A stretch of 64,000 nucleotides of DNA from Escherichia coli (lineage in GTDB: Bacteria > Pseudomonadota > Gammaproteobacteria > Enterobacterales > Enterobacteriaceae): assembly GCF_003019035.1 (NCBI RefSeq), contig NZ_CP027447.1, one strand, 5' to 3'. The stretch's first letter is position 1, and the number at the start of each line of letters is the position of its first letter. The notes below the pieces were generated by a model. That model searched no databases and was not told the origin of the DNA. It worked only from the letters and a program-made list of their open reading frames with translations. Both the position numbers and the translations under genes were made by a program. Below are positions 1 through 13,477 of this stretch, piece by piece.

Positions 1-1395
1 AACCAGCGTGTCATCGAGGGAGAAAAGCAGCGTTTTGTTTTGCATCGCCAGCGACACGCGGAAAAAATAATCCGACATTAATTGATCGGGTTGCGCCGCC
101 TGCGCTTTCGGATACTGGCCGTATCGGGAACTCACTTCGCGACGCCAGATTTGCGCTTCGCCCTGCTGAGTCCGGTTTACCGGCAAAACACCTTCTGGCG
201 CTTTGCTTTCGTGCGCACCAATATTTTGCGTAAACAGTTTTCCTGGCAATTGCACTTGTTCGGCAGAACCATCAAACTGACCGACAAACAGCGGAGTTTG
301 CAATTTTGAATCTTCATACCAGCACAGCCCCGCGCCACCGTCTAACGCCCCGTTGAGCTTGTCGTTTTCCTGGCTGATGTGGGAAAGCATCTCTTCAGCA
401 ATACCATGTGAATAAGGCACCGCCACACAGAAGCTGGCCCCTGCAGGCATACTGTTCCATACCGGCGTAAAATCGAAACTGGCATCTACGCTTGCGGATT
501 CATCATTTAACGCTAGAAAACTGTGCCAGCCGTCGTTGCTCATTTCGAAGCGTACGCCAGCAAAAGAAGGCATTAATCGCTGGTAGCCAAACCCCAGCAA
601 CCTGGCGCTGACCACGATGCGCTGGCGTACTGGCGTTTTTTCAGCAGCACGCTCTTCCAGGCCAAAGCTGGCTTGCCAGCGTTTTTTACCGCTCAACAAA
701 TCACTTGCGATCGCCGTGGCTTCGGTATCCTGCTGATCATCTTTAAACAGCATATCCGTGCTGGAAAATACCAGCATCTTGTCCTGATAAGTTGCGAACA
801 TCAGGGCGTTATTGCCGTTATAGCGCAACTGATAAACCGGGATGGTTTCACTATTTAGCTTAATACTACTGATTTCCGTTTTACTTAACTGGCTGTCGCT
901 GGTAGCGGCAAACAGCAATGGCTCCAGCAGCTTGCTTAAACCACTGCGCTGGATCAGCACCATATAATGAGAAAGATGGCCTTGTTTATCGTGCCATAGC
1001 GCCGCCTGCGCGGGCTGATCTAAGAGTGACGAAAAGAGCTTATCTTTTAGTGTGAGATCGTGTTCGTAGACAATGCGGCGAATGCTGCCTTCAATGCCCA
1101 GACGATCGGCATGATTCTGATAATAGAAAACGAAATCTTCACTCAGAACATCGTGGAGAAACGGAATGGTAAGGAGGTCTTTGGGAAGCTGGCTCAGAGA
1201 GTCGCTGTCGAGAAAGAGGTCCGGCTCATTGAGATCGATTTGCAGATTGTTGTGCACCACCAGCGGCGACAACGTTTTTTCTGGCCCACTGCCAGCATAT
1301 TGCAACGCCCAGACGCCAGCGGAAAGCAGTACTATTGCGCCCAAACCTACAAGACCATAGAACCGCCAGCCTTTCGCCTTTTTTTCACCACTCAT
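1..1395 (-). CDS. yfaA: DUF2138-family protein YfaA-like; N-terminal ~465 codons, 3' end lies beyond window start
   Basis: Minus-strand frame opens at ATG 1393-1395 (MSGEKKAKGWRFYGLVGLGAIVLLSAGVWALQYAGSGPEKTLSPL) with AAGGA Shine-Dalgarno upstream. The ORF track shows no minus-strand ORF closing in 1-1400, consistent with a frame running off the window edge. Identity is from recollection of YfaA and its position next to gyrA. Confidence 0.6.
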   Translation of the reverse strand, partial: MSGEKKAKGWRFYGLVGLGAIVLLSAGVWALQYAGSGPEKTLSPLVVHNNLQIDLNEPDLFLDSDSLSQLPKDLLTIPFLHDVLSEDFVFYYQNHADRLGIEGSIRRIVYEHDLTLKDKLFSSLLDQPAQAALWHDKQGHLSHYMVLIQRSGLSKLLEPLLFAATSDSQLSKTEISSIKLNSETIPVYQLRYNGNNALMFATYQDKMLVFSSTDMLFKDDQQDTEATAIASDLLSGKKRWQASFGLEERAAEKTPVRQRIVVSARLLGFGYQRLMPSFAGVRFEMSNDGWHSFLALNDESASVDASFDFTPVWNSMPAGASFCVAVPYSHGIAEEMLSHISQENDKLNGALDGGAGLCWYEDSKLQTPLFVGQFDGSAEQVQLPGKLFTQNIGAHESKAPEGVLPVNRTQQGEAQIWRREVSSRYGQYPKAQAAQPDQLMSDYFFRVSLAMQNKTLLFSLDDTLV

Positions 1396-1543
1396 TGCCA
1401 CATTCCTTGTGTAAAGCCAGCCATTTTTTACGAGCACAGCAAAACTTTACCGCGCCCTAATACGACAAAAGCCCAGACTTTGCAGCCTGGACTTTTCAAT
1501 TCAAACAAGGGAGATATCTCCCTTTTGGCATGAAGACGTAAAA

Positions 1544-4171
1544 TTATTCTTCTTCTGGCTCGTCGTCAACGTCCACTTCCGGAGCGATTTCATCGTCCCC
1601 TTCCGCGGCACTGCCGTCGATGGTATCCAGATCTTCCTCGTCAACCGGTTCAGCAACACGTTGCAGACCCACTACGTTTTCATCTTCCGCAGTACGGATG
1701 AGGATCACACCCTGGGTGTTACGGCCCACGATGCTGATTTCTGAAACGCGAGTACGTACCAGCGTACCGGCATCGGTGATCATCATGATCTGGTCGCAGT
1801 CATCTACCTGCACTGCGCCAACCACTAAACCGTTACGTTCGGTAACCTTGATGGAAATAACCCCTTTCGTCGCACGCGACTTGGTTGGGTATTCCGCCAC
1901 TGCGGTACGTTTACCATAACCGTTCTGCGTTGCGGTGAGGATTGCGCCATCACCACGAGGTACGATCAGAGAGACGACTTTATCGCCTTCGCCTAAACGA
2001 ATACCGCGAACACCGGTGGTGTTGCAGCCCATCGCACGGACAGAAGACTCTTTAAAGCGCACCACTTTACCTTCAGCGGAGAACAGCATTACTTCATCTT
2101 CGCCACTGGTCAGGTCAACGCCGATCAGCTCATCGCCTTCAACCAGTTTGATCGCCACTTTACCGGCAGTACGCAGACGGTTGAATTCGGTGAGGACGGT
2201 TTTCTTCACAGTTCCGTTAGCGGTCGCCATGAAGACTTTCACGCCTTCTTCAAACTCGGTCACTGGCAGGATCGCAGTGATACGTTCGTCTTGCTCCAGC
2301 GGCAGCAGGTTGACGATCGGACGACCGCGCGCGCCACGAGTAGCTTCTGGCAACTGGTAGACCTTCATCGAATAGACGCGACCACGGCTGGAGAAGCACA
2401 GAATATGGTCGTGGGTATTCGCCACCAGCAGTCGGTCGATAAAGTCTTCTTCTTTAATACGTGCGGCAGATTTACCTTTACCGCCACGACGCTGCGCTTC
2501 GTATTCAGAAAGCGGCTGATACTTCACGTAGCCCTGGTGAGAGAGCGTCACGACCACATCTTCCTGGGTGATCAGATCTTCCAGGTTGATGTCTGCGCTG
2601 TTGGCGGTGATTTCAGTACGACGTTTGTCACCGAACTGTTCACGAACCAGCTCCAGCTCTTCGCGGATCACTTCCATCAGACGATCGGCGCTACCAAGAA
2701 TACGCAACAGTTCCGCGATCTGATCCAGCAGCTCTTTGTATTCGTCGAGCAGTTTTTCGTGCTCAAGGCCGGTCAGTTTCTGCAGACGCAGATCCAGAAT
2801 CGCCTGAGCTTGCTGTTCGGTCAGGTAGTACAGACCATCGCGCACGCCGAACTCTGGCTCCAGCCATTCCGGACGCGCAGCATCGTCGCCAGCACGTTCC
2901 AGCATCGCGGCAACGTTGCCCAGCTGCCACGGATTAGCAACCAGCGCGGTTTTCGCTTCTGCAGGCGTCGGCGCATGACGGATCAGTTCGATGATCGGGT
3001 CAATGTTCGCCAGCGCCACGGCTAATGCTTCAAGGATATGAGCACGATCGCGAGCTTTACGCAGTTCGAAAATAGTACGACGGGTCACCACTTCACGGCG
3101 GTGACGAACAAACGCCGCGATGATGTCTTTCAGGTTCATGATCTTCGGCTGACCATGGTGCAATGCCACCATGTTAATACCGAAAGAAACCTGCAACTGG
3201 GTCTGGGAGTAGAGGTTGTTGAGCACCACTTCACCGACCGCATCGCGTTTCACTTCAATCACGATGCGCATACCGTCTTTGTCAGACTCGTCACGCAGCG
3301 CGCTGATACCTTCCACGCGTTTTTCTTTTACCAGTTCCGCAATCTTCTCGATCAGGCGCGCTTTGTTCACCTGATACGGAATTTCATGGACGATAATGGT
3401 TTCACGTCCGGTTTTGGCGTCAACTTCCACTTCAGCACGGGCGCGGATATATACCTTGCCGCGACCGGTACGGTAAGCTTCTTCAATACCGCGACGACCA
3501 TTAATGATTGCCGCCGTCGGGAAGTCCGGCCCAGGAATGTGTTCCATCAGCCCTTCAATGCTGATGTCTTCATCATCGATATACGCCAGACAACCGTTGA
3601 TAACTTCCGTCAGGTTGTGCGGCGGGATGTTGGTTGCCATACCTACGGCGATACCGGAGGAACCGTTCACCAGCAGGTTAGGAATTTTGGTTGGCATGAC
3701 GTCCGGAATTTTTTCCGTGCCGTCATAGTTATCAACGAAATCGACCGTCTCTTTTTCGAGATCGGCCATCAGTTCATGGGCAATTTTCGCCAGACGGATT
3801 TCCGTATAACGCATTGCCGCCGCAGAGTCGCCGTCGATGGAACCGAAGTTACCCTGACCGTCTACCAGCATGTAACGCAGCGAGAATGGCTGCGCCATAC
3901 GGACGATCGTGTCATAAACCGCCGAGTCACCATGGGGATGGTATTTACCGATTACGTCACCAACGACACGGGCAGATTTTTTATAGGCTTTGTTCCAGTC
4001 ATTGCCTAGTACGTTCATGGCGTAAAGTACGCGACGGTGTACCGGCTTCAGGCCATCTCGGACATCCGGCAGCGCACGGCCAACAATGACCGACATCGCA
4101 TAATCCAGATAGGAGCTCTTCAGCTCTTCCTCAATGTTGACCGGTGTAATTTCTCTCGCAAGGTCGCTCAT
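1544..4171 (-). CDS. gyrA: DNA gyrase subunit A
   Basis: 875-aa ORF with the canonical E. coli GyrA sequence ([47 protein letters not shown]; active-site region; acidic C-terminal tail). QRDR reads [11 protein letters not shown], i.e. Ser83 and Asp87. Confidence 0.97.
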
Positions 4172-4384
4172 CTAACCGCTATCCCTCTACTGTATCCCGG
4201 ATTCAAAGGTCGGAGATTATAACACAATCGCTTGCGGACGGGTAAACGTAATGCAGGCTTCCGGGCGCTGTAGATCTACTGCGTTTTACCCCACCGCCAG
4301 CACACATCGCGCTGGCGGTGAACGACAAAGGAACAAAGACCGCAACACGCTTCCTGTGCCTCAATAAACACCAGAAATAATGGC

Positions 4385-4548
4385 TATACTCGTCATACTT
4401 CAAGTTGCATGTGCTGCGTCTGCGGGTTATTCGGCCCATCCATGGGCCTCACCCCTTACGGGGCCGCTGCAAGCAGCGTTCAAATCCGCTCCATGCGGAT
4501 TTGTCGCTCACCCCAGTCACTTACTTATGTAAGCTCCTTGGGATTCAC
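4385..4548. repeat. ERIC (enterobacterial repetitive intergenic consensus / IRU) element
   Basis: Both classic ERIC ends are present: actcgtcatacttcaagttgcatgtgctgcg at the left, and cgctcaccccagtcacttacttatgtaagctccttgggattcac at the right. The right end contains the complements of the standard ERIC2 and ERIC1R primer sequences. It is intergenic, between the gyrA promoter region and the island. Confidence 0.8.
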
Positions 4549-4599
4549 TCGCTTGTCGCCTTCCTGCAACTCGAATTATTTAGAGTATATAAATCGCCG

Positions 4600-5802
4600 T
4601 TATTTGATCACATAGGCAAGATATTGTTGTACGATTTCATCGTTTAATTCCTGACCAAGCCCAGGCAACTCTGGCGCGACATAATAGCCATTCTCGGGTT
4701 GATAATCGTAAGTACAAAGTTCCCGAATACATGCTTTCATCGCATTGGTATGATGTTCATGAATAATAAAGTTAGGTATTGCAGTTTCCATATGCAGCGC
4801 CGCTACTGTTGAAACAGGCCCGCCACAAACATGTACCTGAACGGTTGTGTCATATATATTGGCATAATCACAAATTTTCTTTCCCTCTGTAATGCCACCA
4901 CAAAGACACAAATCAGGTTGAGCTACCGCAATTGATTGTTTTTCCAGTAAATCACGATATCCCCAGCGAGTATAAGAACGCTCACCTGTTGCTATCGGAA
5001 TCGATGTTGAACGGGCAACTTTCTGCATATTATCCGAATTTAATGGATGAATTGGCTCCTCATAGAGAAAAATACGATATTTCTCTATTGCTTTGGCAAA
5101 CTGGATCGCTGAATTTGTTCCTAGAAGAGAATGAATCTCTACAATAATATCAGCATCGTCGCCCATTGCTTCACGCATAGCGGCAATTCTTGTCTCGCCC
5201 ATTTTTAATTGTTCGGCCAGTAATAAGCCAGAGTAATTTCTATTTTTGTTCTGAAAGACACAATCGCCGCCATGCAGATCGATTTCAAGCGGATCAACTT
5301 TTATCGCATTATAACCTTCTGCAATAGCGGCACGCGCTGCCTCTGCATACTCTTCAGGCGTTACTAATATTTGCCTTTTTTCGCCCCAACCAAATTGTAA
5401 CTGACTGGCGTAAGTTCTCAATTTATCGTTAGTCTTTCCCCCCAGTAGTTGATAAACCGGCACGTTTAAATATTTACCTTTAATATCCCATAAGGCAATA
5501 TCAATAGCGCTCATACCTGCGTAAAAAACATTACCACCGCCCATTCCCCAAAATGTTTTCCTGAAGAGGAATTCCCAAATCTTCTCAATGTTCAACGGAT
5601 CTTCACCAATGATGAGAGGGGCTAAATCTCTGATAATACCAACACCAGATTTTGCACCTGCGCCATAGGCTAATCCTACTTCGCCAACACCACTTATTCC
5701 AGCATCGGTATTAACCCGAATAAGTACTGGATTATAAGAGGCCATAGTTTGATCTCTTTTTTTGAGTTCGCAGTCAAAAATTTCTACAGATGTAATCTTC
5801 AT
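4600..5802 (-). CDS. Enolase-superfamily acid-sugar dehydratase (mandelate racemase/muconate lactonizing enzyme fold; D-galactonate/D-mannonate dehydratase-like)
   Basis: ORF 4600-5814; preferred start is the second ATG at 5802 (MKITSVEIF...), which has a GAGG Shine-Dalgarno 6 nt upstream. Motifs such as AIDIALWDIKGKYLNVPVYQLLGG and GERSYTRWGYRDLLEKQSIAVAQPDLCLCGGITEGKKI resemble DgoD/RspA/RhmD-type dehydratases. Substrate cannot be assigned. Confidence 0.8.
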   Translation of the reverse strand: MKITSVEIFDCELKKRDQTMASYNPVLIRVNTDAGISGVGEVGLAYGAGAKSGVGIIRDLAPLIIGEDPLNIEKIWEFLFRKTFWGMGGGNVFYAGMSAIDIALWDIKGKYLNVPVYQLLGGKTNDKLRTYASQLQFGWGEKRQILVTPEEYAEAARAAIAEGYNAIKVDPLEIDLHGGDCVFQNKNRNYSGLLLAEQLKMGETRIAAMREAMGDDADIIVEIHSLLGTNSAIQFAKAIEKYRIFLYEEPIHPLNSDNMQKVARSTSIPIATGERSYTRWGYRDLLEKQSIAVAQPDLCLCGGITEGKKICDYANIYDTTVQVHVCGGPVSTVAALHMETAIPNFIIHEHHTNAMKACIRELCTYDYQPENGYYVAPELPGLGQELNDEIVQQYLAYVIK

Positions 5803-5814
5803 AAATAACCTCAT

Positions 5815-7143
5815 TTATTTAGCATGTGAAATAACATTGTCTTTCTGGGCGTTATCTTTTTTATTATCAATTTTCATTGATAACAAAATAGCTACGGCGA
5901 TAAAGCAAAGAATCGCCTCAACAATAAATATCCCCGTGGCTCCATAATGTGTAGAAACATAGCCAAGTGATTTATTGATCAGAAAACCACCCAAACTTGA
6001 ACAAGAGTTAATAAACGCAATACTGATTGCCAGGCCTGATGGTGAAAGTAAAGCTGAGGGTAAAGCCCAGTACGGACCGTAATAACTGAGAATGCCTACA
6101 CCGTATAATGTTAATCCCATCATGCGCAGCGTCATCGAAGGTACAAGTGCGATCATTAAAAAACCGCAACCTGCAACCAACATCGGTAGTGCGGCATGCC
6201 ATTTCCTTTCATTCTTTTTATCGGAATGCCATCCCCATAATGGCATACTGAACATCGCGAAAATAAACGGAATACTCATAATCAAACCGACATCGGTATC
6301 TGTGAAATCCGATGAAAATCCTTTAACCAACCCCGGTAACCAGTAATTTGCCGCCAACGCCGCTGCCTGAATAAACATATAAGCAAATGAGAGTTGTAGT
6401 AATACTGGATTTTTAATGATTGACAGAAAAGATGCATTTGTATTTTTATTTAATGCTGCGGCTTTTTCGTTATCAGAATTAAGTTTATCGACCAATGCGG
6501 TGACTTGCGATGGTGTAAGCCAGCGGGCTTTTTCCGGACGATCTGGCAGTAAATAAAAGGTCAGCGCCCCCAATAACACCGTAGGAATGCCTTCAATAGC
6601 AAAAAGCCAGCGCCATCCTTCATAGTTACCGGTATTCATATGTTCAATAATCCAACCAGACATTGGTGCCGCCAGCACAGATGCAACTGCGATTGATAAC
6701 ATAAAAAAGCTATTCACTTTTCCACGTTCACGCGCCGGGAACCAACATGCCAGGTAGTAAACCATGCCAGGGAAAAAACCCGCTTCAAATATTCCCAAAA
6801 AGACCCGAGCGAGCAATATATGCTGGGTGTCTTTGGCAAAGAAAATTAACGTTGTTACTGTTCCCCAACCAACAATAATGGCGCTAATCCATTTTCTTGC
6901 ACCTAACTTTTGCAATCCAATACTGCTCGGAATTTGAAAAATCAAATAGGACACAAAAAATATTGAAGATATATTAGCAAAATCCTCTGGAGTAATACCA
7001 AGGGATTCATTCATGCGTAAAGCGGCAAATCCGATGTTAACACGATCCATATAGTTAAAAAAATACAGAATAAATGCTAACGGAATAATCTTCCTTTTCA
7101 CAATAGAAATGGCGTCATACAAATCTTTCTGAGGACTGCTCAT
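5815..7143 (-). CDS. MFS transporter, anion:cation symporter (ACS) family, putative sugar-acid permease
   Basis: 442-aa ORF with good SD (AAAGGTGA). Hydrophobic multi-helix protein with ACS signature regions ([33 protein letters not shown]) paralogous to RhmT in this window. Its stop abuts the dehydratase start. Confidence 0.85.
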   Translation of the reverse strand: MSSPQKDLYDAISIVKRKIIPLAFILYFFNYMDRVNIGFAALRMNESLGITPEDFANISSIFFVSYLIFQIPSSIGLQKLGARKWISAIIVGWGTVTTLIFFAKDTQHILLARVFLGIFEAGFFPGMVYYLACWFPARERGKVNSFFMLSIAVASVLAAPMSGWIIEHMNTGNYEGWRWLFAIEGIPTVLLGALTFYLLPDRPEKARWLTPSQVTALVDKLNSDNEKAAALNKNTNASFLSIIKNPVLLQLSFAYMFIQAAALAANYWLPGLVKGFSSDFTDTDVGLIMSIPFIFAMFSMPLWGWHSDKKNERKWHAALPMLVAGCGFLMIALVPSMTLRMMGLTLYGVGILSYYGPYWALPSALLSPSGLAISIAFINSCSSLGGFLINKSLGYVSTHYGATGIFIVEAILCFIAVAILLSMKIDNKKDNAQKDNVISHAK

Positions 7144-7233
7144 TTTGTTTCACCTTTTGTGCTTCAATGAATAAGAGTACTGCCCGAAGTGGATATTACG
7201 TAAAAAATAATCCAGTTCAAAAGGTGATGTGTT

Positions 7234-7249
7234 ATATCTGATATATCAG
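7234..7249. promoter_or_regulatory. Candidate operator 1 in the divergent MFS/GntR promoter region; contains the perfect 12-bp palindrome CTGATATATCAG
   Basis: atatctgatatat at 7234-7246, with the palindrome ctgatatatcag at 7238-7249. The same 13-mer recurs at 7304-7316. Located between divergent genes, one of which is a GntR regulator. Confidence 0.5.
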
Positions 7250-7303
7250 CTTGATCATTGATTGAAACACTAAGCTACAACAATAAGATATATCATTTTT
7301 GTC

Positions 7304-7316
7304 ATATCTGATATAT
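7304..7316. promoter_or_regulatory. Candidate operator 2 (second copy of ATATCTGATATAT)
   Basis: Exact 13-bp direct repeat of the 7234-7246 motif, 70 bp downstream and about 65 bp upstream of the GntR start codon. Confidence 0.45.
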
Positions 7317-7380
7317 TAGACACCTTCATTGATAAAATGATTACATATAATGGACCAGCAGCTTAATAAGGGGCAAAGGA

Positions 7381-8079
7381 ATGAGAGATAAAGCGAAACG
7401 TGACTTAAGTCACATATCAATTGAGATACCAAAATCCGTAACACAGGTCATCAAAGAAAAAATCAGGGATATGATAATTCATGGCGATCTCAGTCTTGGG
7501 CAACCGATAAGTGAAAATGAACTTTCGAATATCCTGGCGGTAAGTAAAACACCTATTCGTGAAGCTTTTATTTTACTTAGTCACAATGAAAATCTGATCA
7601 ATATCATTCCACGCAGCGGAACATTCGTTTTTTCCGTAACAGATAAAGATATTAATGACCTCATAAAAATGCGAGTAATTCTGGAGCAGGGTGCAATTCG
7701 TGAAGCAATGGAAAAGAATGAAAACAATGTCATCATTGAATTAAGTAGCATACTATCAAAATCAGCAAAAATTAATGCCGAGCGTGATACTCAGGCTTAT
7801 CTTAAATTGGATCATGATTTTCATTATGTGTTTGTTAAATACGCTGCTAATAAATACATCTCTCAGGCACACCAATTGATATCCGCACGTTTACTTGCTA
7901 TTCGTTATCGACTGGATTTCACTACGGAATATATTACCAATTCAAATCGTGGCCATGCCACTATTTTAGATATGCTAAAAAATAATAACGTTGAAGGTGT
8001 TTGTAATTTTATTACTCATCACGTAAGTAGTGGATTTACCGAGCGTGCACGAAAAATTCTCTCGTTATCTACACAGTAA
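7381..8079 (+). CDS. GntR-family (FadR/FCD-type) transcriptional regulator
   Basis: 232-aa ORF with an N-terminal winged-HTH pattern (LSLGQPISENELSNILAVSKTPIREAF) and a helical C-terminal ligand-binding-like domain. Divergent to the transporter-dehydratase pair; AGGGG SD 8 nt upstream. Confidence 0.8.
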   Translation: MRDKAKRDLSHISIEIPKSVTQVIKEKIRDMIIHGDLSLGQPISENELSNILAVSKTPIREAFILLSHNENLINIIPRSGTFVFSVTDKDINDLIKMRVILEQGAIREAMEKNENNVIIELSSILSKSAKINAERDTQAYLKLDHDFHYVFVKYAANKYISQAHQLISARLLAIRYRLDFTTEYITNSNRGHATILDMLKNNNVEGVCNFITHHVSSGFTERARKILSLSTQ

Positions 8080-8156
8080 AATGTGAATGAGTTTATAACA
8101 CTGGCACTTTTCACCTGCTATACTGCCCGACAACCTTTATAGACTCTTATGTAACA

Positions 8157-8879
8157 ATGAACACTGAAAATCTCCTTAAAAACAATAACGTAGACCACGA
8201 AGAGATCGCTAAATTTGAAGCCGTCGCCTCCCGCTGGTGGGATCTTGAAGGTGAGTTCAAACCGCTGCACCGCATTAACCCGCTGCGTCTGGGCTATATT
8301 GCCGAGCGTGCTGGCGGTTTATTTGGCAAAAAGGTGCTCGATGTCGGTTGTGGCGGCGGCATTCTGGCCGAGAGTATGGCGCGCGAAGGCGCGACGGTGA
8401 CCGGTCTGGATATGGGCTTTGAGCCATTGCAGGTGGCAAAGTTGCACGCGCTGGAAAGTGGCATTCAGGTAGAGTACGTGCAGGAAACCGTGGAAGAGCA
8501 CGCGGCAAAACATGCCGGGCAGTATGACGTGGTGACCTGCATGGAGATGCTGGAGCACGTGCCCGATCCGCAGTCAGTGGTCAGAGCCTGTGCGCAACTG
8601 GTGAAACCGGGCGGCGATGTCTTTTTCTCGACGCTTAACCGCAACGGCAAGTCATGGCTGATGGCGGTAGTCGGCGCAGAATATATTTTGCGCATGGTGC
8701 CTAAAGGTACACATGATGTGAAGAAGTTTATTAAACCGGCAGAATTGCTGGGCTGGGTGGATCAGACAAGCCTTAAAGAGCGGCATATGACTGGGCTGCA
8801 TTACAACCCGATCACTAATTCCTTTAAGCTCGGCCCCGGCGTGGATGTGAACTATATGCTGCATACGCAGAATAAGTGA
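8157..8879 (+). CDS. ubiG: Bifunctional 3-demethylubiquinone-9 3-O-methyltransferase / 2-polyprenyl-6-hydroxyphenol methylase
   Basis: 240-aa ORF with SAM-binding motif [13 protein letters not shown] and an otherwise UbiG-typical sequence ([46 protein letters not shown]). Confidence 0.95.
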
Positions 8880-8914
8880 GGTTGTTGTTTGGATTCAGCC
8901 GACGACCGAGCCAA

Positions 8915-8996
8915 GCCTGATGCGACGCTTGCCGCGTCTTATCAGGCCTACAAATGCTCCCGTAGGCCAGATAAGGCGTTTACGCCGCATCCGGCA
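8915..8996. repeat. REP/BIME element (two inverted REP units)
   Basis: gcctgatgcgacgcttgccgcgtcttatcaggcctac followed by the inverted unit gtaggccagataaggcgtttacgccgcatccggca, lying between convergent ubiG and yfaL. Confidence 0.8.
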
Positions 8997-9017
8997 ACAG
9001 TGCCGGTCAGACAGCGA

Positions 9018-12000
9018 TTACCATTTCACTGTCATCGACAAAAACCCTGCCGTCTGGGCAAAATCATCACTCCCTTTCTGCCACGCCACGCTACCACGCA
9101 GCGAAACTCGCTGACTGATATTGCCCGTTATTCCCACTTTTATTTCACCCCGTTGCTTCACCGCATCGTCACTGATAGTGCTGCCATCTTCTTCAATTTC
9201 CGTCGCATGGGGATCGTGATAATAATTCAGATCTAATGTTGGTATGACACCAACCGCGGTACGCCATTCGCTGTGTAAACCCAGCCGCGTTTGAATATCA
9301 TCACCCTGCGATTGTGACACCCGCGCATGGTTAGCAGCGGTGAAATCATCCTGCTGCACGCCCTGATAAATCACCTGCGCCTGTGGTTCAATCACCACTC
9401 CATGCCCCGGTAACCACTGATACCCGGCTTCCAGCGAGGCGATAATCCCCGATGAGTGGTAATGATCCGCGCCATCTTCATGTTCGGAAACATCATTGTT
9501 AAACCACGCGTATTGCAGCCAGCTATCCAGCCAGGCCCCCTGCTTCTGATTACCGTGCTGGAACCAGCTTGAGGTCAGACCAACGGCATAACCGTGGTTC
9601 TGGTTATCGGCGCGAGTTCCGGTCATATTCGAGCGGCTGTCGCCCTGGTTATCACTGTAGCCACCAACCGCCCCAAGCATCCACTCGCCATCCATGCCCC
9701 AGCGCCCGCTAAACAAGTCGCCGCTAAGCTGCACCGTAGAAGTGTCTTCATGCTGAGCCAGTTGCCCCGCTGCTGTGTAATGATAATCTCCGCCGATAAC
9801 ACGTAAATTCAGCGTCTGACCATCGCCACCAGCGTGATCGCGTCGCTCCATCACAAATGCCTGATTTGCCGCACGTAGGTTATTGAGATAGCCACCAACT
9901 TTGGCATTCAGCACCGGCTGGTAGGCAGGCGTAGGGGCTGGAGCCGGGTCGGGTGTTGGATCAGGATCCGGCGTAGGATCAGGATCTGGAGTCGGGTCTG
10001 GATCGGGCGGCGATGGTGGCGTTACTTCTTGCGATCGCAGATACCAGTCGTTGTTATCTTCCACCAGCGTGTAGTCATACGCTCCCATATTGACGTAGCC
10101 GCTGCCCGCCAGACTGAACTGCGCATTGTTTTGAAATTGCGTTGGATCGGCTGCGAAATCAACCACTTTAATGCCCGTAGATGTCGGCTCACCAATACCC
10201 GTAATGGGATTAATTACCACGGTCGTGTTGCCAGCAGTATTACCGTTCAACACCAGTTGGTCGCTTGCCGAGTCATCGCCGTTTAATTCGCTGTCGAGAA
10301 ACAACGTACCGCCACCGGTGTAATCACCGTTTACCGTGAGCGTGTCGCCAGCAACGCCATTTTGCAGACTGACAGCACCGGAAGTATTAGTTAGATCACC
10401 ATTGACCGTCACGTCTGAAAGATAAGTCAGGCTGTCAGTTTCAAGGTTGGTATTAAGCTCGCCTGTCAGCGTCACACCATCGGTGGCATTCACCAACGTA
10501 CCGTCGCCGCTAAACAGCGAGGCATCCAGCGCCTGGTTCGTATCCTGCTGCGTCAATCGCAACACAGTACCATCGGTTATGTCGATATCGCCGCCAGAGG
10601 TGGCATCGATTGAACGAATATCCTGATTTTGCCCGGTTTCAAAAACACCGTCTTCCCCCACCCACAGTGAAGAAACATAAGGAATAATATTCTCCGCTTC
10701 ACCTTTTAGCGTTCCGTCCTCCACACGTACCGCAGACGTCGCAGTGCCGCTGGCGGTCAACTCCAGCGTCCCGCCGCCACTTTTAGTCAACGTGCTTACG
10801 CTATCCAGTTGTTGCCCGGTACTATCCGCCATCAACCCGCCCCATTGCGTATCTACGCCATCCTCAACGTGTATTTCGCCATCAGCGCGCATTTCAATAT
10901 TCCTGCCCTGACCTGTTGTAGCCGAGCGAGTGTCAACATCAGTCGTCACATCCATTTCACTGTGTTGTTGGGGATCTGTGAAGATCACTGAACGGTTGTA
11001 ACTTGTGTCCCCCAATTGCGAATTATCGCTGACTTCAAGCGTACCGGAGGCGATTTGCGTATTACCGAGATAACCGTTGTTATTCGCCAGCGTTACGCGC
11101 TGATCCCCCGCATTAATGACGACATAAACGCCATTCTGGCTGGCATCACTGCCGCCAATATGTAAATCATCGCCACTGCTGATATCAACGACATCATTAC
11201 TACCAATCACTGTCCCCCCGCTGCCGCTGATTTGCAGACCGTCATTGTATGAGCTATCGCCATCCCAGGTGGTGAAATCAGAGAGATCCAATACTCCGCC
11301 ATTTAGCACGATCGATTGCGGATCGCTCTGCATTGCCCGTAAATCGGCCTGATTCCCCGCCAGCGACAATACGGCGTTATCTTCCACCACAATATCGCCG
11401 GTTAATGCCATCGACTGCGCCCCTGTCAGGAGATAGCTGCCATCTTGCGCTACCGTCAACTGTCCTTCACCCTGAATCGAGCCGGAAAAACCGCCCTGGT
11501 TTACGGTAACATTGCCGCCTGCGTCGATATTCAAAATGCCATTAGCAAAACCGGTTAATGAGTGCACAAACGTTTGTTGTGTATTGCCAACATTCAGTTC
11601 TGCCTGATACTCAGAATGAACAGTGCTGCCGACCATCAGACCAAAGCAATCCTGCGGATCGCTCTGACAGTGCGTGTCGCCGACATTCATTAACTCATCG
11701 CTGCGCCCCAACGTCACCTCGCCATTCTGGATACTCATCTCGCCGGTAAACGCATTATTGTCGGCATTGAGGACTAACTCTCCCGCTCCCTCTTTAACGA
11801 TGACTCCCGTTCCGGCAAGAGAATCAATCGCGCCATCGTTGCTGGTATTGCCTATTACCAGCGTTTTATCGGCGGCAATGTTAAATTCAGCCACACTATG
11901 ACCGATATACATAAAGCCCCCCGCCGCTGCCGTCGCCGAATGGTCATATCCCGAGGCGCTGTTATTTTCATCAATCATCACACCATTGTTTTGGTCATAA

Positions 12001-12782
12001 TTATCATCAACAGAAATATCAATAAGATACGGGGATGTGGTGCTGCTGGTATAAATTGCTCCGCCATAACCTTCTGCATAGTTATTGGTAAAGGAGGTAT
12101 TATTAATTATCGTTTTTCCTGAAAGATGTGTGTTATCCGTACTATTATCCGTAACATCAATGGCACCGCCGTCCCCATCACTATAGCTGGTTGATGTATA
12201 TGCCTGATTATTATCAAAAATGACATCACTTAAATAAATATCATTATTGATAGAATAAATAGCGCCACCTTTACCATCATTGGCGATATTATTCGCAAAT
12301 ATTGCATTAGTGATATTTAAATCCATATCACCGGCATCGTTTGTTCCCGCAGAATAGATTGCTCCGCCATAGCCTCCTGCAACGTTACTGTCGAAAATAA
12401 CATTCGCAAGATTTATCATTGAGTTTTCTTTAGCAAAGATAGCTCCGCCATTATTATATTCGCCACTAATCGAGTTATTAGCAAACAGGGTCATCCCTGT
12501 TTCATTTTGTGGTGATATCGTAAATTCAGCACTTTGCTGCAAAAATACGGCGCCACCGCTGGCATTATTGGCCATACCCGAAAAAATCACCCATTGCCCA
12601 TCGGCGATGCTCCAGTCCTGCGTAATGCCTGAAAGGCTTTGCCTGCTGGCCTGACAACTCGCTTTGATATCATATCCCTGGCATGAATCCAAAACCTCCG
12701 CGACACTGTTAACAGAGAAAAGAGATGCAATCATTGACGGGAGTAAAGATAAATACTCCTTGCGTAGAAAAATAATCCGCAT
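9018..12782 (-). CDS. yfaL: Autotransporter adhesin (AIDA-I type, YfaL/EhaC)
   Basis: 1254-aa ORF with signal peptide, a long Gly/Asn/Thr-rich beta-helix passenger domain, a Pro-rich linker (PPSPPDPDPTPDPDPTPDPDPTPDPAPAPTP) and a C-terminal beta-barrel translocator ending in W. Confidence 0.9.
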   Translation of the reverse strand: MRIIFLRKEYLSLLPSMIASLFSVNSVAEVLDSCQGYDIKASCQASRQSLSGITQDWSIADGQWVIFSGMANNASGGAVFLQQSAEFTISPQNETGMTLFANNSISGEYNNGGAIFAKENSMINLANVIFDSNVAGGYGGAIYSAGTNDAGDMDLNITNAIFANNIANDGKGGAIYSINNDIYLSDVIFDNNQAYTSTSYSDGDGGAIDVTDNSTDNTHLSGKTIINNTSFTNNYAEGYGGAIYTSSTTSPYLIDISVDDNYDQNNGVMIDENNSASGYDHSATAAAGGFMYIGHSVAEFNIAADKTLVIGNTSNDGAIDSLAGTGVIVKEGAGELVLNADNNAFTGEMSIQNGEVTLGRSDELMNVGDTHCQSDPQDCFGLMVGSTVHSEYQAELNVGNTQQTFVHSLTGFANGILNIDAGGNVTVNQGGFSGSIQGEGQLTVAQDGSYLLTGAQSMALTGDIVVEDNAVLSLAGNQADLRAMQSDPQSIVLNGGVLDLSDFTTWDGDSSYNDGLQISGSGGTVIGSNDVVDISSGDDLHIGGSDASQNGVYVVINAGDQRVTLANNNGYLGNTQIASGTLEVSDNSQLGDTSYNRSVIFTDPQQHSEMDVTTDVDTRSATTGQGRNIEMRADGEIHVEDGVDTQWGGLMADSTGQQLDSVSTLTKSGGGTLELTASGTATSAVRVEDGTLKGEAENIIPYVSSLWVGEDGVFETGQNQDIRSIDATSGGDIDITDGTVLRLTQQDTNQALDASLFSGDGTLVNATDGVTLTGELNTNLETDSLTYLSDVTVNGDLTNTSGAVSLQNGVAGDTLTVNGDYTGGGTLFLDSELNGDDSASDQLVLNGNTAGNTTVVINPITGIGEPTSTGIKVVDFAADPTQFQNNAQFSLAGSGYVNMGAYDYTLVEDNNDWYLRSQEVTPPSPPDPDPTPDPDPTPDPDPTPDPAPAPTPAYQPVLNAKVGGYLNNLRAANQAFVMERRDHAGGDGQTLNLRVIGGDYHYTAAGQLAQHEDTSTVQLSGDLFSGRWGMDGEWMLGAVGGYSDNQGDSRSNMTGTRADNQNHGYAVGLTSSWFQHGNQKQGAWLDSWLQYAWFNNDVSEHEDGADHYHSSGIIASLEAGYQWLPGHGVVIEPQAQVIYQGVQQDDFTAANHARVSQSQGDDIQTRLGLHSEWRTAVGVIPTLDLNYYHDPHATEIEEDGSTISDDAVKQRGEIKVGITGNISQRVSLRGSVAWQKGSDDFAQTAGFLSMTVKW
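9933..10015. repeat. Short tandem repeat inside yfaL encoding the (PDPDPT)n linker
   Basis: Repeating ggatcaggatc / ggatctggagtcgggtctggatc units on the plus strand, corresponding to the PDPDPTPDPDPTPDPDPTPDP linker on the coding strand. Confidence 0.6.
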
Positions 12783-13315
12783 ATTAATCTGACCATCATT
12801 TTCTATAAGACGGCATATTTAATCGCATTATACGATATGGGTTATTTTTCTTTTGTAAATTGTTCAACCCGGTGCAATGGCTATTTTGTTATTATTTCAT
12901 GAATAATATCAGTGCGTCATAATTCAAGTTAATCACCTTAAGGGATATCAGTTATGTTTAAACTGAATTAAAGTAATGAATAATTTTCTTATAATATAAG
13001 GTAAATTAACAAAATGGCTTCGCATTTAACAACAACCGAAGAGAAAACAACCATTTCGACATCAACAATCGCTTACATTCGCTTATATATTGACCATAAC
13101 TGATACATCAGATTATGTGATGACTCGTGCTTAGATCAATTTTTGCAATCATTAGCCAAAAGATTAATAAACCATCTATATCAATTTATCTAACCTATTC
13201 TTCCGTTCAAGAAATCGCCGAACAGTTATTTTTAACAAATTTTTCTCTTCCCATTGACTTTCCCGGACACCTTGTCTGACCTAAGGTGCGCGAAAGCCAC
13301 TTTTTCCTTCCTGAG

Positions 13316-13324
13316 TTATCCACA
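13316..13324 (+). promoter_or_regulatory. DnaA box (TTATCCACA) in the nrdAB promoter region
   Basis: Perfect 9-mer consensus ttatccaca about 150 bp upstream of the nrdA start. Confidence 0.6.
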
Positions 13325-13353
13325 AAGTTATGCACTTGCAAGAGGGCCATTTT

Positions 13354-13400
13354 CACACTATCTTGCAGTGAATCCCAAACATACCCCCTATATATAGTGT
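13354..13400 (+). promoter_or_regulatory. Tandem NrdR-box-like palindromes upstream of nrdA
   Basis: cacactatcttgcagtg (13354-13370) and ccctatatatagtgt (13385-13400) resemble the 16-bp NrdR consensus; centres are about 31 bp apart (three helical turns). Confidence 0.55.
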
Positions 13401-13477
13401 TCTAAGCAGCTTCCCTCACTACAGGTAGTCTGCATGAAACTATTGCGGAAAGAATTCCAAAAACAGGTACGACATAC

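What the first reader, a model, noticed from the sequence alone, without database searches (positions are those of the whole stretch)
4203..8156. AT-rich three-gene sugar-acid module (GntR regulator, ACS-type MFS permease, enolase-superfamily dehydratase) inserted between gyrA and ubiG
In the K-12 reference layout, as I recall it, gyrA and ubiG are adjacent across a short intergenic region. Here they are about 3.98 kb apart. The intervening DNA looks noticeably AT-richer than the flanks by eye and carries a divergently organised regulator / transporter-dehydratase unit. The transporter stop abuts the dehydratase start, suggesting co-translation. The module has an uptake system and a dehydratase but no aldolase, kinase or dehydrogenase of its own, so its 2-keto-3-deoxy product would have to be processed by enzymes encoded elsewhere. 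That makes it an incomplete, probably horizontally acquired catabolic cassette whose substrate cannot be named from sequence. This is the strongest candidate in the window for an uncharacterised function.
Basis: partly seen in the sequence, partly recalled or inferred. Interest (0 to 1): 0.62.

Follow-up and report, generated by a model that had tools for sequence, protein, structure and literature searches.

The report
Orphan acid-dehydratase cassette between gyrA and ubiG
This E. coli strain carries, between gyrA and ubiG, a regulator–transporter–dehydratase trio that is the counterpart of Salmonella genes STM2273–STM2275; the trio looks functional and has a solved structure, but nobody has found its substrate.

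Summary
gyrA and ubiG are 3,985 bp apart here, against 146 bp in K-12. The extra DNA has 39% GC, against about 52% in the flanks. It encodes a GntR/FCD regulator divergent from an MFS permease–enolase-superfamily dehydratase operon.

It is not a strain-specific insertion:
- Salmonella enterica has the same three genes, in the same order, at the same site, with the same ERIC repeat downstream.
- The dehydratase is 92% identical to PDB 2GL5/4E6M ("putative dehydratase").
- Divergence from Salmonella matches that of the flanking core genes, so the two copies are old orthologues under purifying selection.
- E. coli is cleanly dimorphic at this site: 141 of 5,426 complete genomes carry the module and 5,283 carry the K-12 junction. 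Every carrier I could type is phylogroup F.

The same transporter–dehydratase–regulator unit recurs at other sites in about 18 contexts, and never with a recognisable sugar-acid aldolase or kinase. "Incomplete cassette" is therefore the wrong reading: the unit is self-contained.

The catalytic residues match D-galactonate dehydratase, but the protein fails every curated family cut-off. I found no functional study, so the substrate is unknown.

- The dehydratase starts at 5802, not 5814.
- The right junction lies inside ubiG (8179/8180).
- RefSeq's "frameshifted" regulator is intact.

The find is ordinary but useful.

The parts
4172..4226 (.). gyrA upstream region shared with K-12 and Salmonella. 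Left homology with K-12 ends at 4226.
   Evidence: BLASTN against the MG1655 interval gives 173/176 identity ending at 4226. The first 55 nt upstream of gyrA are 96-100% identical among window, K-12 and Salmonella.
4227..4384 (.). Module-type non-coding DNA next to gyrA. It holds a GC-rich 10-bp-stem inverted repeat at 4292-4320.
   Evidence: This stretch has no close K-12 counterpart: identity is only about 59% with the K-12 intergenic region. The sequence was read. It is identical in IAI39.
4385..4589 (.). ERIC/IRU repeat, long form, with a 78-nt internal segment at about 4425-4502. It lies immediately downstream of the dehydratase stop.
   Evidence: Query positions 212-423 hit 2-12 places in 5,425 of 5,426 E. 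coli genomes. Alignment with IAI39 (canonical 127-nt form) and with Salmonella (same site, different internal deletion) is.
4600..5802 (-). Enolase-superfamily dehydratase (mandelate-racemase subgroup), 400 aa. It is the orthologue of Salmonella STM2273 (PDB 2GL5/4E6M).
   Evidence: - Pfam MR_MLE_N plus MR_MLE_C.
- E = 1e-259 to 4E6M, 92% identity.
- The catalytic positions E222/E248/E274, H224, D297 and H324 align with those of DgoD.
- Every NCBIfam equivalog is below its cut-off.
5803..5814 (-). 12-nt spacer between the MFS stop and the dehydratase start. It holds the GAGG Shine-Dalgarno (5811-5808) and an upstream in-frame ATG (5814-5812) that is unlikely to be used.
   Evidence: Sequence, RefSeq start, and homologue N-termini.
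5815..7143 (-). MFS permease, 442 aa, most similar to the anion:cation symporter (ACS) family. It is the orthologue of STM2274.
   Evidence: - Pfam MFS_1.
- The best NCBIfam hits are HpaX (271 bits) and TIGR00893 D-galactonate-transporter subfamily (270 bits), both below cut-off.
- 23% identity to E. coli DgoT.
- 89% identity to the Salmonella protein.
7144..7380 (.). Divergent control region with two copies of a 12-bp palindrome: O1 CTGATATATCAG at 7238-7249 and O2 CTGATATATTAG at 7308-7319, 70 nt apart.
   Evidence: Direct-repeat family D2 has 20 nt at 90% identity. Both sites are conserved in Salmonella and in the L038 cassette while the surrounding intergenic DNA diverges.
7381..8079 (+). 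GntR-family regulator of the FadR/FCD type, 232 aa, intact. It is the orthologue of STM2275.
   Evidence: - Pfam GntR covers model positions 3-64 of 64 and FCD covers 1-124 of 125.
- The start codon and Shine-Dalgarno position are conserved with Salmonella and L038.
- The 232-aa form is annotated as intact in many GenBank records.
- RefSeq's "frameshifted" call reflects a 294-aa Salmonella reference.
8080..8179 (+). Module-type ubiG promoter region and ubiG codons 1-8. The right junction with K-12-type sequence is at 8179/8180.
   Evidence: - K-12 homology resumes at 8180.
- The upstream 77 nt are 57% identical to K-12 and 70% identical to Salmonella.
- A promoter-like site with TG-TATACT lies at 8095-8124.
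- ubiG differences from K-12 are listed by position.

Best explanation
**What it is.** The interval holds a self-contained, substrate-inducible catabolic cassette.
- A FadR/FCD-type GntR repressor (7381-8079) probably binds two palindromic operators in the divergent control region. It would release them when it binds the substrate or product.
- An ACS-type MFS symporter (5815-7143) imports an organic anion.
- A Mg2+-dependent enolase-superfamily enzyme (4600-5802) removes the alpha-proton with a His324-Asp297 dyad. It expels the beta-hydroxyl with His224 as the acid, as D-galactonate dehydratase does. The product is a 2-keto-3-deoxy (alpha-keto) acid.

**Where the product goes.** No partner enzyme ever accompanies the unit. 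The product must therefore be used by enzymes the host already has. My first choice is 2-keto-3-deoxygluconate through KdgK and Eda. Alternatively the product is itself a central keto acid.

**Origin.** The locus is the positional orthologue of Salmonella STM2273-STM2275. It was already at gyrA-ubiG in a common ancestor, or in a close relative, of Escherichia and Salmonella. In E. coli it survives only in a minority lineage, phylogroup F. It most likely reached that lineage by homologous recombination through the gyrA upstream region and the start of ubiG.

**Shown:** gene families, catalytic residues, orthology, distribution, and operator conservation.
**Inferred:** repression logic, the direction of the recombination event, and the fate of the product.
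**Unknown:** the substrate.
For: **Families and domains**
-.

**Catalytic set**
- It aligns with DgoD D183/H185/E209/E235/D258/H285 and is invariant across 9 family members.

**Orthology with Salmonella**
- The exact 4E6M sequence is encoded in the order nrdAB-ubiG-GntR|MFS-dehydratase-gyrA-rcsC.
- The ERIC insertion site is shared.
- Amino-acid identity is 92/89/88%.
- dN is 0.046-0.071, against 0.048-0.058 for gyrA and ubiG.
- dS is 1.4-2.8, which is saturated, and dN/dS is about 0.03.

**Dimorphism in E. coli**
- 141 genomes have the module and 5,283 have the K-12 junction, out of 5,426.
- SCU-301, which is 100% identical to the window, is phylogroup F/ST967 (PMC11251922).
- IAI39 and SMS-3-5 also carry the module.

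**Sharp junctions with deeply diverged boundary segments**
- The boundary segments are 57-59% identical, while ubiG nt 29-284 show a single difference.

**A recurring minimal unit**
- L038, an unidentified enterobacterium, carries it between yhjC and yhjD at 87% identity.
- Budvicia and Limnobaculum carry it between gltI and lnt.
- It is also seen in Morganella, Caballeronia, Gilliamella, Pleomorphomonas, Enterobacter and Salmonella serovar India.
- TRAP-transporter versions occur in Synergistaceae.

**Operators**
-.

**Composition**
- The cassette is foreign in composition in Enterobacteriaceae (39-41% against 52-54% GC).
- It matches the host in Budviciaceae, at about 45% GC.
Against: - No experiment links the genes to any substrate. 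Literature searches found only incidental mentions.
- The protein has had a structure since 2006 and still carries the name "putative dehydratase". From my own knowledge of how such structural-genomics targets were screened, this suggests that common acid sugars may have been tried without success. That weakens the KDG-producing guess.
- Homologues 54-58% identical sit beside LarA-type 2-hydroxyacid racemases, UxaA/GarD-type dehydratases and a tautomerase. This points to small hydroxy acids rather than hexonates.
- RefSeq marks the regulator as a pseudogene.
- The phylogroup assignment rests on three typed strains.
- My scan of other genera was incomplete: it missed Salmonella itself.
Confidence: 0.75

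Rival explanations
1. One reading: a recent, strain-level horizontal insertion (a small genomic island) carrying an incomplete pathway.
For: - The cassette has 39% GC against 52% in the flanks, and GC3 of 0.28-0.37.
- It is absent from 97% of E. coli genomes.
- The same cassette occurs at other chromosomal sites in other genera, once next to an integrase and once among IS elements.
Against: - Salmonella has the same site, the same order and the same ERIC remnant.
- Divergence from Salmonella is saturated at synonymous sites and equal to the flanks at non-synonymous sites. No near-identical donor exists, so the event is old.
- No integrase, tRNA gene or flanking direct repeat is present.
- The 140 complete copies among the 141 carrier genomes are 98.8-100% identical to the window, as core genes are.
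- The three-gene unit is conserved as such in about 18 contexts, so it is not a fragment.
Confidence: 0.12
2. The module is ancestral to E. coli and was lost once. The 146-bp K-12-type junction then spread through the species by recombination, and phylogroup F simply kept the old state.
For: - Positional orthology with Salmonella.
- The K-12 intergenic region is colinear with the outer ends of the Salmonella interval: GGTAAAC...GCTTTATTC on the left and CCTG(A/C)TATACT on the right.
Against: - The retained boundary segments (the ubiG promoter and codons 1-8, and gyrA upstream nt 56-146) are only 57-71% identical between the two E. coli haplotypes. DNA just outside them is 96-100% identical. 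A simple deletion within E. coli cannot produce that pattern, so one haplotype was imported from a distant relative.
- The K-12 type is found in 5,283 genomes of every other lineage. Import into F is therefore the more economical reading, though not a proven one.
Confidence: 0.3
3. The cassette is a complete one-enzyme pathway for a small hydroxy-(di)carboxylate. Candidates are a tartrate isomer giving oxaloacetate, glycerate or a 3-substituted lactate giving pyruvate, or threonate. The product would be a central keto acid, not a 2-keto-3-deoxy sugar acid.
For: - No recognisable sugar-acid aldolase or kinase appears in any of about 18 contexts.
- The partner transporters are types used for carboxylates: ACS-type MFS, TRAP, TTT, and a polar-amino-acid-type ABC system.
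- Relatives 54-58% identical neighbour LarA-type 2-hydroxyacid racemases, split UxaA/GarD-type dehydratases and a 4-OT tautomerase.
- Salmonella ST313 strains with a ttdA pseudogene still respire meso-tartrate (PMC4372345). A TtdAB-independent tartrate enzyme therefore exists somewhere in Salmonella.
Against: - The evidence is purely circumstantial.
- The informative neighbourhoods belong to distant relatives that may differ in specificity.
- Tartrates were, to my knowledge, part of the standard acid-sugar screening libraries, and no activity was ever reported for this protein.
- D-tartrate dehydratase uses a beta2 lysine base. This protein lacks it: it has K168-x-D170.
Confidence: 0.2
4. It is a second D-galactonate (or D-gluconate) dehydratase system, an isozyme of DgoD with its own permease.
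For: - The best NCBIfam hits are galactonate dehydratase (249 bits) and the bifunctional gluconate/galactonate dehydratase (239 bits).
- The catalytic residues are identical in kind to those of DgoD.
Against: - The score is below the 311-bit equivalog cut-off, and identity to DgoD is 31%.
- The permease is 23% identical to DgoT.
- About 40 extra residues lie in the barrel region.
- E. coli and Salmonella already have the dgo operon.
- The name "galactonate dehydratase" on some homologues comes from automatic annotation only.
Confidence: 0.12
5. The module is a decaying, non-functional remnant in E. coli.
For: - RefSeq annotates the regulator as frameshifted in SCU-301 and IAI39.
- Two of 141 genomes have IS damage.
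- The MFS gene is reported as a pseudogene in S. Gallinarum (PMC8538453).
Against: - All three ORFs are full length with complete Pfam domains.
- The regulator's start is conserved, and the "frameshift" lies upstream of it.
- dN/dS is about 0.03.
- The operators are conserved.
- 139 of 141 copies are undisrupted.
Confidence: 0.06

Closest known systems
Salmonella enterica STM2273-STM2275 (dehydratase structures PDB 2GL5 and 4E6M, "putative dehydratase protein")
   Same: - Same three genes, same order and orientation, same chromosomal site between gyrA and ubiG, and the same ERIC remnant.
- 92/89/88% amino-acid identity.
- Locus-tag products agree: dehydratase, MFS transporter and transcriptional regulator.
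   Different: - About 20% nucleotide divergence.
- The E. coli copy has a long-form ERIC.
- ubiG codons 2-10 differ.
- In Salmonella the module appears species-wide (the exact protein is indexed in 33,100 blocks of the assembly collection). In E. coli it is in 2.6% of complete genomes.
- The function is unassigned in both species.
E. coli D-galactonate dehydratase DgoD and the dgoRKADT operon
   Same: - Enolase superfamily.
- The same kinds of catalytic residues at the same barrel positions: metal ligands at beta3/4/5, a His acid at beta3, and an Asp-His dyad at beta6/7.
- A GntR/FCD regulator and an ACS-type MFS permease in the same locus.
   Different: - 31% identity, and the first metal ligand is Glu rather than Asp.
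- About 40 extra residues.
- The score is below the equivalog cut-off.
- There is no DgoK kinase or DgoA aldolase.
- The permease is only 23% identical to DgoT.
E. coli L-rhamnonate system RhmD/RhmT/RhmR/RhmA (present in this same window at about 28-32.4 kb)
   Same: An enolase-superfamily dehydratase plus an ACS-type MFS permease plus a regulator, for an acid sugar.
   Different: - The Rhm locus includes its own aldolase.
- RhmD passes its equivalog (823 bits against a cut-off of 393), whereas the module's enzyme scores 125 on that model.
D-mannonate dehydratase (ManD) subgroup, including RspA
   Same: Same superfamily. Many members are also orphans with low or no activity. That last point is my own knowledge of the ManD literature.
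   Different: The score is 204 bits against a 550 cut-off for ManD, and 196 against 430 for the PRK15072 subfamily.
Structural-genomics orphans PDB 2O56 (Salmonella), 2OX4 and 2POZ
   Same: They are the next-closest solved structures, with E = 1e-148 to 1e-80. All carry only generic names.
   Different: They are more distant paralogues. None has an assigned substrate, so they add no functional information.

Membership tests
Enolase superfamily | N-terminal capping domain plus C-terminal modified TIM barrel (Pfam MR_MLE_N, MR_MLE_C) | tested here: met
   MR_MLE_N E = 2e-22 and MR_MLE_C E = 4e-58. 92% identical to solved structures 2GL5 and 4E6M.
Enolase superfamily | Three carboxylate ligands for the essential divalent metal at the ends of barrel strands 3, 4 and 5 | tested here: met
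   E222, E248 and E274 align with DgoD D183, E209 and E235 (DgoD residue numbers from my own knowledge of the published enzyme). All three are invariant in the family.
Mandelate racemase subgroup | His-Asp dyad at strands 7 and 6 | tested here: met
   H324 and D297 are invariant and align with DgoD H285 and D258.
Mandelate racemase subgroup | KxK motif at strand 2, where the second Lys is the S-specific base | tested here: not met
   The sequence is K168-V-D170, and DgoD has K-L-N at the same place. This argues against racemase, FucD-type or TarD-type chemistry.
D-galactonate dehydratase DgoD (NCBIfam NF010624) | Whole-protein score at or above the curated cut-off of 311 bits | tested here: not met
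   248.9 bits. 31% identity to E. coli DgoD.
D-galactonate dehydratase DgoD | General acid His two residues after the first metal ligand | tested here: met
   H224 aligns with DgoD H185 and is invariant.
D-galactonate dehydratase DgoD | Operon context with the DgoK kinase and DgoA aldolase | tested here: not met
   Neither is present here or in any of about 18 homologous contexts.
D-mannonate dehydratase ManD (NF043051) / PRK15072 subfamily | Curated cut-offs of 550 and 430 bits | tested here: not met
   203.6 and 196.4 bits.
L-rhamnonate dehydratase (NF011968) | Curated cut-off of 393 bits | tested here: not met
   125.2 bits. As a positive control, the window's own RhmD scores 822.6.
Anion:cation symporter (ACS) family of MFS (TIGR00893 subfamily) | Score at or above the 395-bit cut-off, with best similarity to known ACS members | tested here: inconclusive
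   269.7 bits, and 270.7 bits on HpaX. These are the best two hits, and both are ACS members. The bona fide ACS member RhmT scores only 251.8 on the same model, so the cut-off is too strict to exclude membership.
GntR family, FadR/FCD subfamily | N-terminal GntR winged helix-turn-helix plus C-terminal FCD ligand-binding domain | tested here: met
   GntR covers model positions 3-64 of 64 (E = 1.5e-13) and FCD covers 1-124 of 125 (E = 5e-21).
GntR family, FadR/FCD subfamily | Binding to palindromic operators near its own or the divergent promoter | not testable with these tools
   Two conserved 12-bp palindromes are candidates. Binding itself was not shown.
Classical genomic island | Integrase or transposase, tRNA-adjacent insertion, and flanking direct repeats | tested here: not met
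   No such genes are annotated in the interval. No tRNA gene lies in 1-14000. No bracketing direct repeat exists.
Classical genomic island | Base composition that departs from the host | tested here: met
   38.8% against 52% GC.

The most novel reading that the evidence does not exclude
The cassette may be a complete one-enzyme catabolic route, consisting of import followed by a single beta-elimination. The substrate would be a small hydroxy-(di)carboxylate that yields a central keto acid directly, either oxaloacetate or pyruvate. One example would be an oxygen-tolerant, iron-sulfur-independent tartrate-type dehydratase. That would explain why no recognisable sugar-acid aldolase or kinase accompanies the unit anywhere. 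It would also assign a function to a Salmonella-wide orphan enzyme, and give E. coli phylogroup F a metabolic trait it shares with Salmonella.
Probability: 0.2. Interest if true: 0.55.

Novelty: new member of a known kind. Interest (0 to 1): 0.33.

Why it matters
**The enzyme.** It belongs to a well-conserved, widely spread family: at least 60% identity from Enterobacterales to Synergistaceae, plus a few fungi. The Salmonella orthologue's exact sequence is indexed in 33,100 blocks of the assembly collection. Two crystal structures exist, yet no substrate is assigned. Naming the substrate would close a gap in Salmonella and E. coli metabolic models. It might also reveal a nutrient used in the gut, since the MFS gene is reported as a pseudogene in the host-restricted serovar Gallinarum.

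**E. coli population genetics.** The locus is a clean presence/absence marker. It separates a minority lineage, phylogroup F as far as I could type, from the rest of the species. It is also a tidy example of a whole operon exchanged through flanking homology in two essential-gene neighbourhoods (gyrA and ubiG).

None of this would surprise a specialist. Orphan "regulator + permease + enolase-superfamily enzyme" units are common.

Tried and rejected
1. **Literature.**
   - I searched for the Salmonella locus tags and PDB codes, arabinonate dehydratase, 2O56/2OX4/2POZ, gyrA+ubiG+mandelate racemase, C3-C4 acid dehydratases, meso-tartrate, and fungal D-galactonate dehydratases.
   - Only incidental mentions of the genes turned up. 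No functional study did.
2. **Link to Aspergillus niger D-galactonate dehydratases DgdA/DgdB.** The fungal homologues are a handful of sporadic sequences nested among bacterial ones, and no A. niger protein appeared. The original paper is not held. I dropped this lead.
3. **My recollection that this might be a "D-arabinonate dehydratase".** I rejected it. That substrate needs an S-specific lysine base at strand 2, which is absent, and I found no supporting source.
4. **meso-Tartrate by matching R/S labels to D-galactonate.** I rejected this as reasoning. By relative configuration, the threo C2/C3 arrangement of D-galactonate corresponds to L-(+)-tartrate, not to meso-tartrate. Only circumstantial hints remain.
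5. **Known RNA families in 4000-8400.** Nothing reached threshold.
6. **tRNA genes, flanking direct repeats and mobility genes.** None were found.
7. **Plasmid carriage.** The only close plasmid hits are about 500-kb Salmonella records that carry gyrA, nrdAB and rcsC. They are chromosome pieces.
8. **Scan of one genome per species.** It found Budviciaceae and distant relatives but missed Salmonella itself. It cannot be used to claim absence from other Enterobacteriaceae or other Escherichia species.
9. **Neighbourhoods of 52-58% homologues**. These are suggestive but too distant to transfer specificity.

Full report
**1. What is in the sequence**

The window is E. coli. Over 4172-8156 it is 100% identical to the chromosome of strain SCU-301.

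| Feature | Coordinates | Strand |
|---|---|---|
| gyrA | 1544-4171 | - |
| Enolase-superfamily ORF | 4600-5814 | - |
| MFS permease | 5815-7143 | - |
| GntR-family regulator | 7381-8079 | + |
| ubiG | 8157-8879 | + |
| yfaL | 9018-12782 | - |

- In MG1655, gyrA and ubiG are separated by 146 bp. Here the gap is 3,985 bp.
- GC in 500-bp windows falls to 34-43% across the three genes and is 52-56% in gyrA and ubiG.
- The cassette as a whole has 38.8% GC.
- GC3 is 0.28-0.37 in the three genes and 0.58-0.63 in gyrA and ubiG.

**2. Three corrections of detail**

*Junctions.* A BLASTN comparison with the MG1655 interval places the junctions at 4226/4227 and 8179/8180.
- 3,953 bp here replace 114 bp of K-12.
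- The right junction is inside ubiG. The protein begins [10 protein letters not shown] here, MNAEKSPVNH in K-12 and MNTEKPSVAH in Salmonella.

*Dehydratase start.* On the coding strand the MFS stop is followed by ATGAGGTTATTTATGAAG.
- The first ATG abuts the stop, but it overlaps a GAGG Shine-Dalgarno placed six bases before the second ATG, at 5802.
- Every homologue begins MKIT..., and RefSeq starts the gene at 5802.
- The protein is therefore 400 aa, and the two genes are 12 nt apart. They are still clearly one operon.

*ERIC repeat.* Positions 4385-4589 are an ERIC/IRU repeat that hits 2-12 places in 5,425 of 5,426 E. coli genomes.

**3. It is the Salmonella STM2273-STM2275 locus**

- The dehydratase matches PDB 4E6M and 2GL5 ("putative dehydratase protein") at E = 1e-259.
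- The exact 4E6M sequence is indexed in 33,100 blocks of the assembly collection. The four loci shown all read nrdB-nrdA-ubiG-GntR | MFS-dehydratase-gyrA-rcsC.
- A record labelled Salmonella enterica serovar Infantis shows the same annotated order.
- Papers give STM2273 as "dehydratase", STM2274 as "MFS transporter" and STM2275 as a transcriptional regulator.
- The non-coding DNA agrees too. An ERIC element sits at the same place downstream of the dehydratase in SCU-301, IAI39 and Salmonella, as three different internal-deletion variants of one insertion.

| Gene | aa identity to Salmonella | nt identity | dN | dS |
|---|---|---|---|---|
| Dehydratase | 92% | 82% | 0.046 | 1.43 |
| MFS | 89% | 79% | 0.071 | 2.20 |
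| Regulator | 88% | 80% | 0.065 | 2.84 |
| gyrA | – | – | 0.048 | 0.67 |
| ubiG | – | – | 0.058 | 2.62 |

The module is thus as old as the E. coli-Salmonella split, or came from a lineage equally distant. It evolves under strong purifying selection, with dN/dS of about 0.03 (approximate, because dS is saturated).

**4. Distribution in E. coli**

- Of 5,426 complete genomes, 141 carry the module. It is single copy and chromosomal, and the 140 complete copies are 98.8-100% identical to the window.
- 5,283 genomes carry the K-12-type junction. The two states account for all but two genomes.
- SCU-301 is phylogroup F/ST967 (PMC11251922).
- IAI39 and SMS-3-5 also carry it. From general knowledge, both are phylogroup F references.
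- Two carriers have IS damage.

The two haplotypes differ by more than an indel.

| Segment | Window vs K-12 |
|---|---|
| 77 nt upstream of ubiG | 57% identical |
| ubiG codons 1-8 | 71% identical |
| gyrA upstream nt 56-146 | 59% identical |
| gyrA upstream nt 1-55 | 96% identical |
| ubiG nt 29-284 | 1 difference |

- A deletion arising inside E. coli would not leave such diverged boundaries. One haplotype was exchanged by homologous recombination with a distant relative that had the same synteny.
- Because every other lineage has the K-12 type, I favour import into the ancestor of phylogroup F. Ancestral retention with a swept deletion is not excluded.
- There is no integrase, IS, tRNA gene or bracketing direct repeat.

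**5. The three-gene unit recurs elsewhere**

| Host | Identity | Context |
|---|---|---|
| Unidentified enterobacterium (its KdgK clusters with Kosakonia/Phytobacter) | 87% | Same divergent cassette, between yhjC and yhjD |
| Budvicia, Limnobaculum | 78% | MFS-dehydratase-GntR between gltI and lnt |
| Morganella | 66% | Next to an integrase |
| Enterobacter | 62% | Among IS fragments |
| Salmonella serovar India (paralogue) | 56% | Next to an integrase |
| Caballeronia, Gilliamella | 71%, 64% | Same minimal unit |
| Pleomorphomonas | 69% | Same unit, with three tandem dehydratase paralogues |
| Synergistaceae | 66% | TRAP transporter in place of the MFS |

- None of these contexts, nor the more distant ones I examined, has a recognisable sugar-acid aldolase or kinase.
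- In Enterobacteriaceae the cassette has 39-41% GC against flanks of 52-54%. In Budviciaceae it matches the host at about 45%. The composition is consistent with an origin in lower-GC Enterobacterales.
- My conclusion is that the unit is not "incomplete". Selection keeps exactly these three functions together, so the enzyme's product must be handled by housekeeping enzymes or be a central metabolite.

**6. Mechanism**

*Domains.* Pfam finds MR_MLE_N and MR_MLE_C in the enzyme, MFS_1 in the permease, and a complete GntR plus FCD pair in the regulator.

*Catalytic residues.* In an alignment with E. coli DgoD:
- E222, E248 and E274 occupy the metal-ligand positions.
- H224 occupies the general-acid position.
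- D297 and H324 occupy the Asp-His dyad.
- All are invariant in nine family members.
- Strand 2 reads K168-x-D170, not KxK.

*What follows from established enolase-superfamily chemistry.*
- This set performs R-specific proton abstraction by His and anti elimination of the beta-hydroxyl, as in D-galactonate dehydratase.
- It is not suited to two-base racemisation, or to the Lys-initiated reactions of L-fuconate and D-tartrate dehydratases.
- Substrates with the D-galactonate-like threo arrangement at C2/C3 are therefore favoured. These include D-gluconate, D-galactonate, D-xylonate, L-arabinonate, L-threonate and L-(+)-tartrate. This is an inference.

*Membership in named families fails.*

| NCBIfam model | Score (bits) | Cut-off (bits) |
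|---|---|---|
| DgoD | 249 | 311 |
| Gluconate/galactonate dehydratase | 239 | 750 |
| ManD | 204 | 550 |
| RhmD | 125 | 393 |

- The window's own RhmD scores 823 on its model, which serves as a positive control.
- The permease's best hits are two ACS-family models at about 270 bits, below cut-off. The genuine ACS member RhmT scores lower on the same model.
- The permease is 23% identical to DgoT.

**7. Regulation**

- The 237-bp divergent region holds two copies of a 12-bp palindrome, CTGATATATCAG at 7238-7249 and CTGATATATTAG at 7308-7319. Their centres are 70 nt apart.
- Both are conserved in Salmonella and in the L038 cassette, while the surrounding DNA diverges.
- They are the likely operators of the FCD-type regulator. 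Binding was not tested.

RefSeq calls the regulator "frameshifted" in SCU-301 and IAI39.
- The Salmonella reference is annotated 294 aa long, starting from an upstream ATG.
- The conserved start, with a GGAGG-type Shine-Dalgarno in Salmonella, corresponds to ATG 7381 here.
- The 232-aa protein has complete domains and is annotated intact in many GenBank records.
- I regard the gene as intact.

**8. Substrate**

I found no experimental assignment.
- The fungal homologues are sporadic and do not connect to the characterised A. niger D-galactonate dehydratases.
- More distant relatives (54-58% identical) point towards small hydroxy acids:
  - On a Sporomusa plasmid and in a Clostridia MAG, they neighbour LarA-type 2-hydroxyacid racemases.
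  - In Sporomusa and Oxalobacter, they neighbour split UxaA/GarD-type dehydratases.
  - They sit beside TTT, TRAP or ABC carboxylate transporters.
  - In Oxalobacter a 4-OT tautomerase is also present.
- Salmonella ST313 strains with a ttdA pseudogene still use meso-tartrate (PMC4372345). An unassigned tartrate enzyme therefore exists in Salmonella, but nothing ties it to this gene.

I commit to this statement: the enzyme is a DgoD-like beta-eliminating dehydratase acting on an imported hydroxy-carboxylate.

My split for the product is:
- about 40% a 2-keto-3-deoxy sugar acid that enters KdgK/Eda or a similar core route;
- about 20% a central keto acid formed in one step;
- the rest unknown chemistry.

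**9. Verdict**

The feature is real and functional-looking. It is already present in databases and in the PDB as an orphan. It is a new (unassigned) member of a known kind. It is moderately useful as a target for function discovery and as a lineage marker, but it is not surprising.

**Limits**
- Phylogroup typing rests on three strains.
- The cross-species scan was incomplete.
- dS is saturated.
- All functional statements beyond family and catalytic residues are inference.

Noticed in passing
window 4385-4589: The ERIC/IRU repeat downstream of the dehydratase is a long form. It has a 78-nt internal segment (about 4425-4502) that IAI39 lacks. Salmonella keeps that segment but lacks the ERIC core. 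These are three deletion variants of one old insertion.
   Followed up: partly
window 8157-8186: ubiG codons 2-10 ([10 protein letters not shown]) differ from both K-12 (MNAEKSPVNH) and Salmonella (MNTEKPSVAH). The haplotype boundary therefore falls inside an essential-pathway gene and changes its N-terminus.
   Followed up: partly
window 54154-54539 and 55512-56182: Compared with MG1655, the window lacks yfbK (between elaD and yfbL). It also lacks yfbM-yfbN-yfbO-yfbP (between yfbL and nuoN). The gaps are 386 and 671 bp where K-12 has about 1.9 and 3.2 kb.
   Followed up: partly
window 12000-13500: An AT-rich stretch (GC 0.30-0.38) covers the 5' end of yfaL and the region upstream of nrdA. I did not examine it further.
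   Followed up: no
window 4292-4320: A GC-rich inverted repeat with a 10-bp stem (CACCGCCAGC...GCTGGCGGTG) lies in the module-type DNA next to the gyrA promoter. No T-run follows it, so it is not a canonical terminator.
   Followed up: no
L004 (E. coli AF57) and hit H127 (E. coli TH9F11): Two of the 141 carriers have IS damage. In AF57 an IS1-associated deletion removes the MFS gene and parts of both neighbours. In TH9F11 an IS5 interrupts the dehydratase gene.
   Followed up: partly
L045 (Sporomusa plasmid), L017 (Clostridia MAG), L042 (Oxalobacter): Relatives 54-58% identical (57% to the fungal query P0082 for Oxalobacter) sit next to LarA-type 2-hydroxyacid racemases and split UxaA/GarD-type dehydratases. 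They also neighbour TTT, TRAP or ABC carboxylate transporters and, in Oxalobacter, a 4-OT tautomerase. This recurring association is unexplained.
   Followed up: partly
L025; hits H116-H118 / L048: There are data-quality oddities. A 444-bp, 1x-coverage contig in a Terrisporobacter assembly is 99% identical to the dehydratase, which looks like contamination. Three Salmonella "plasmids" of about 500 kb in PLSDB match the dehydratase at about 92%; the one I opened (L048) carries gyrA, nrdAB and rcsC, so it is a chromosome fragment.
   Followed up: partly
protein cluster: In the 90%-identity protein collection, the MFS permease and the dehydratase fall in one cluster whose representative is an MFS protein. 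A fused gene call presumably bridges them. This hid the E. coli and Salmonella dehydratases from the homology search.
   Followed up: no
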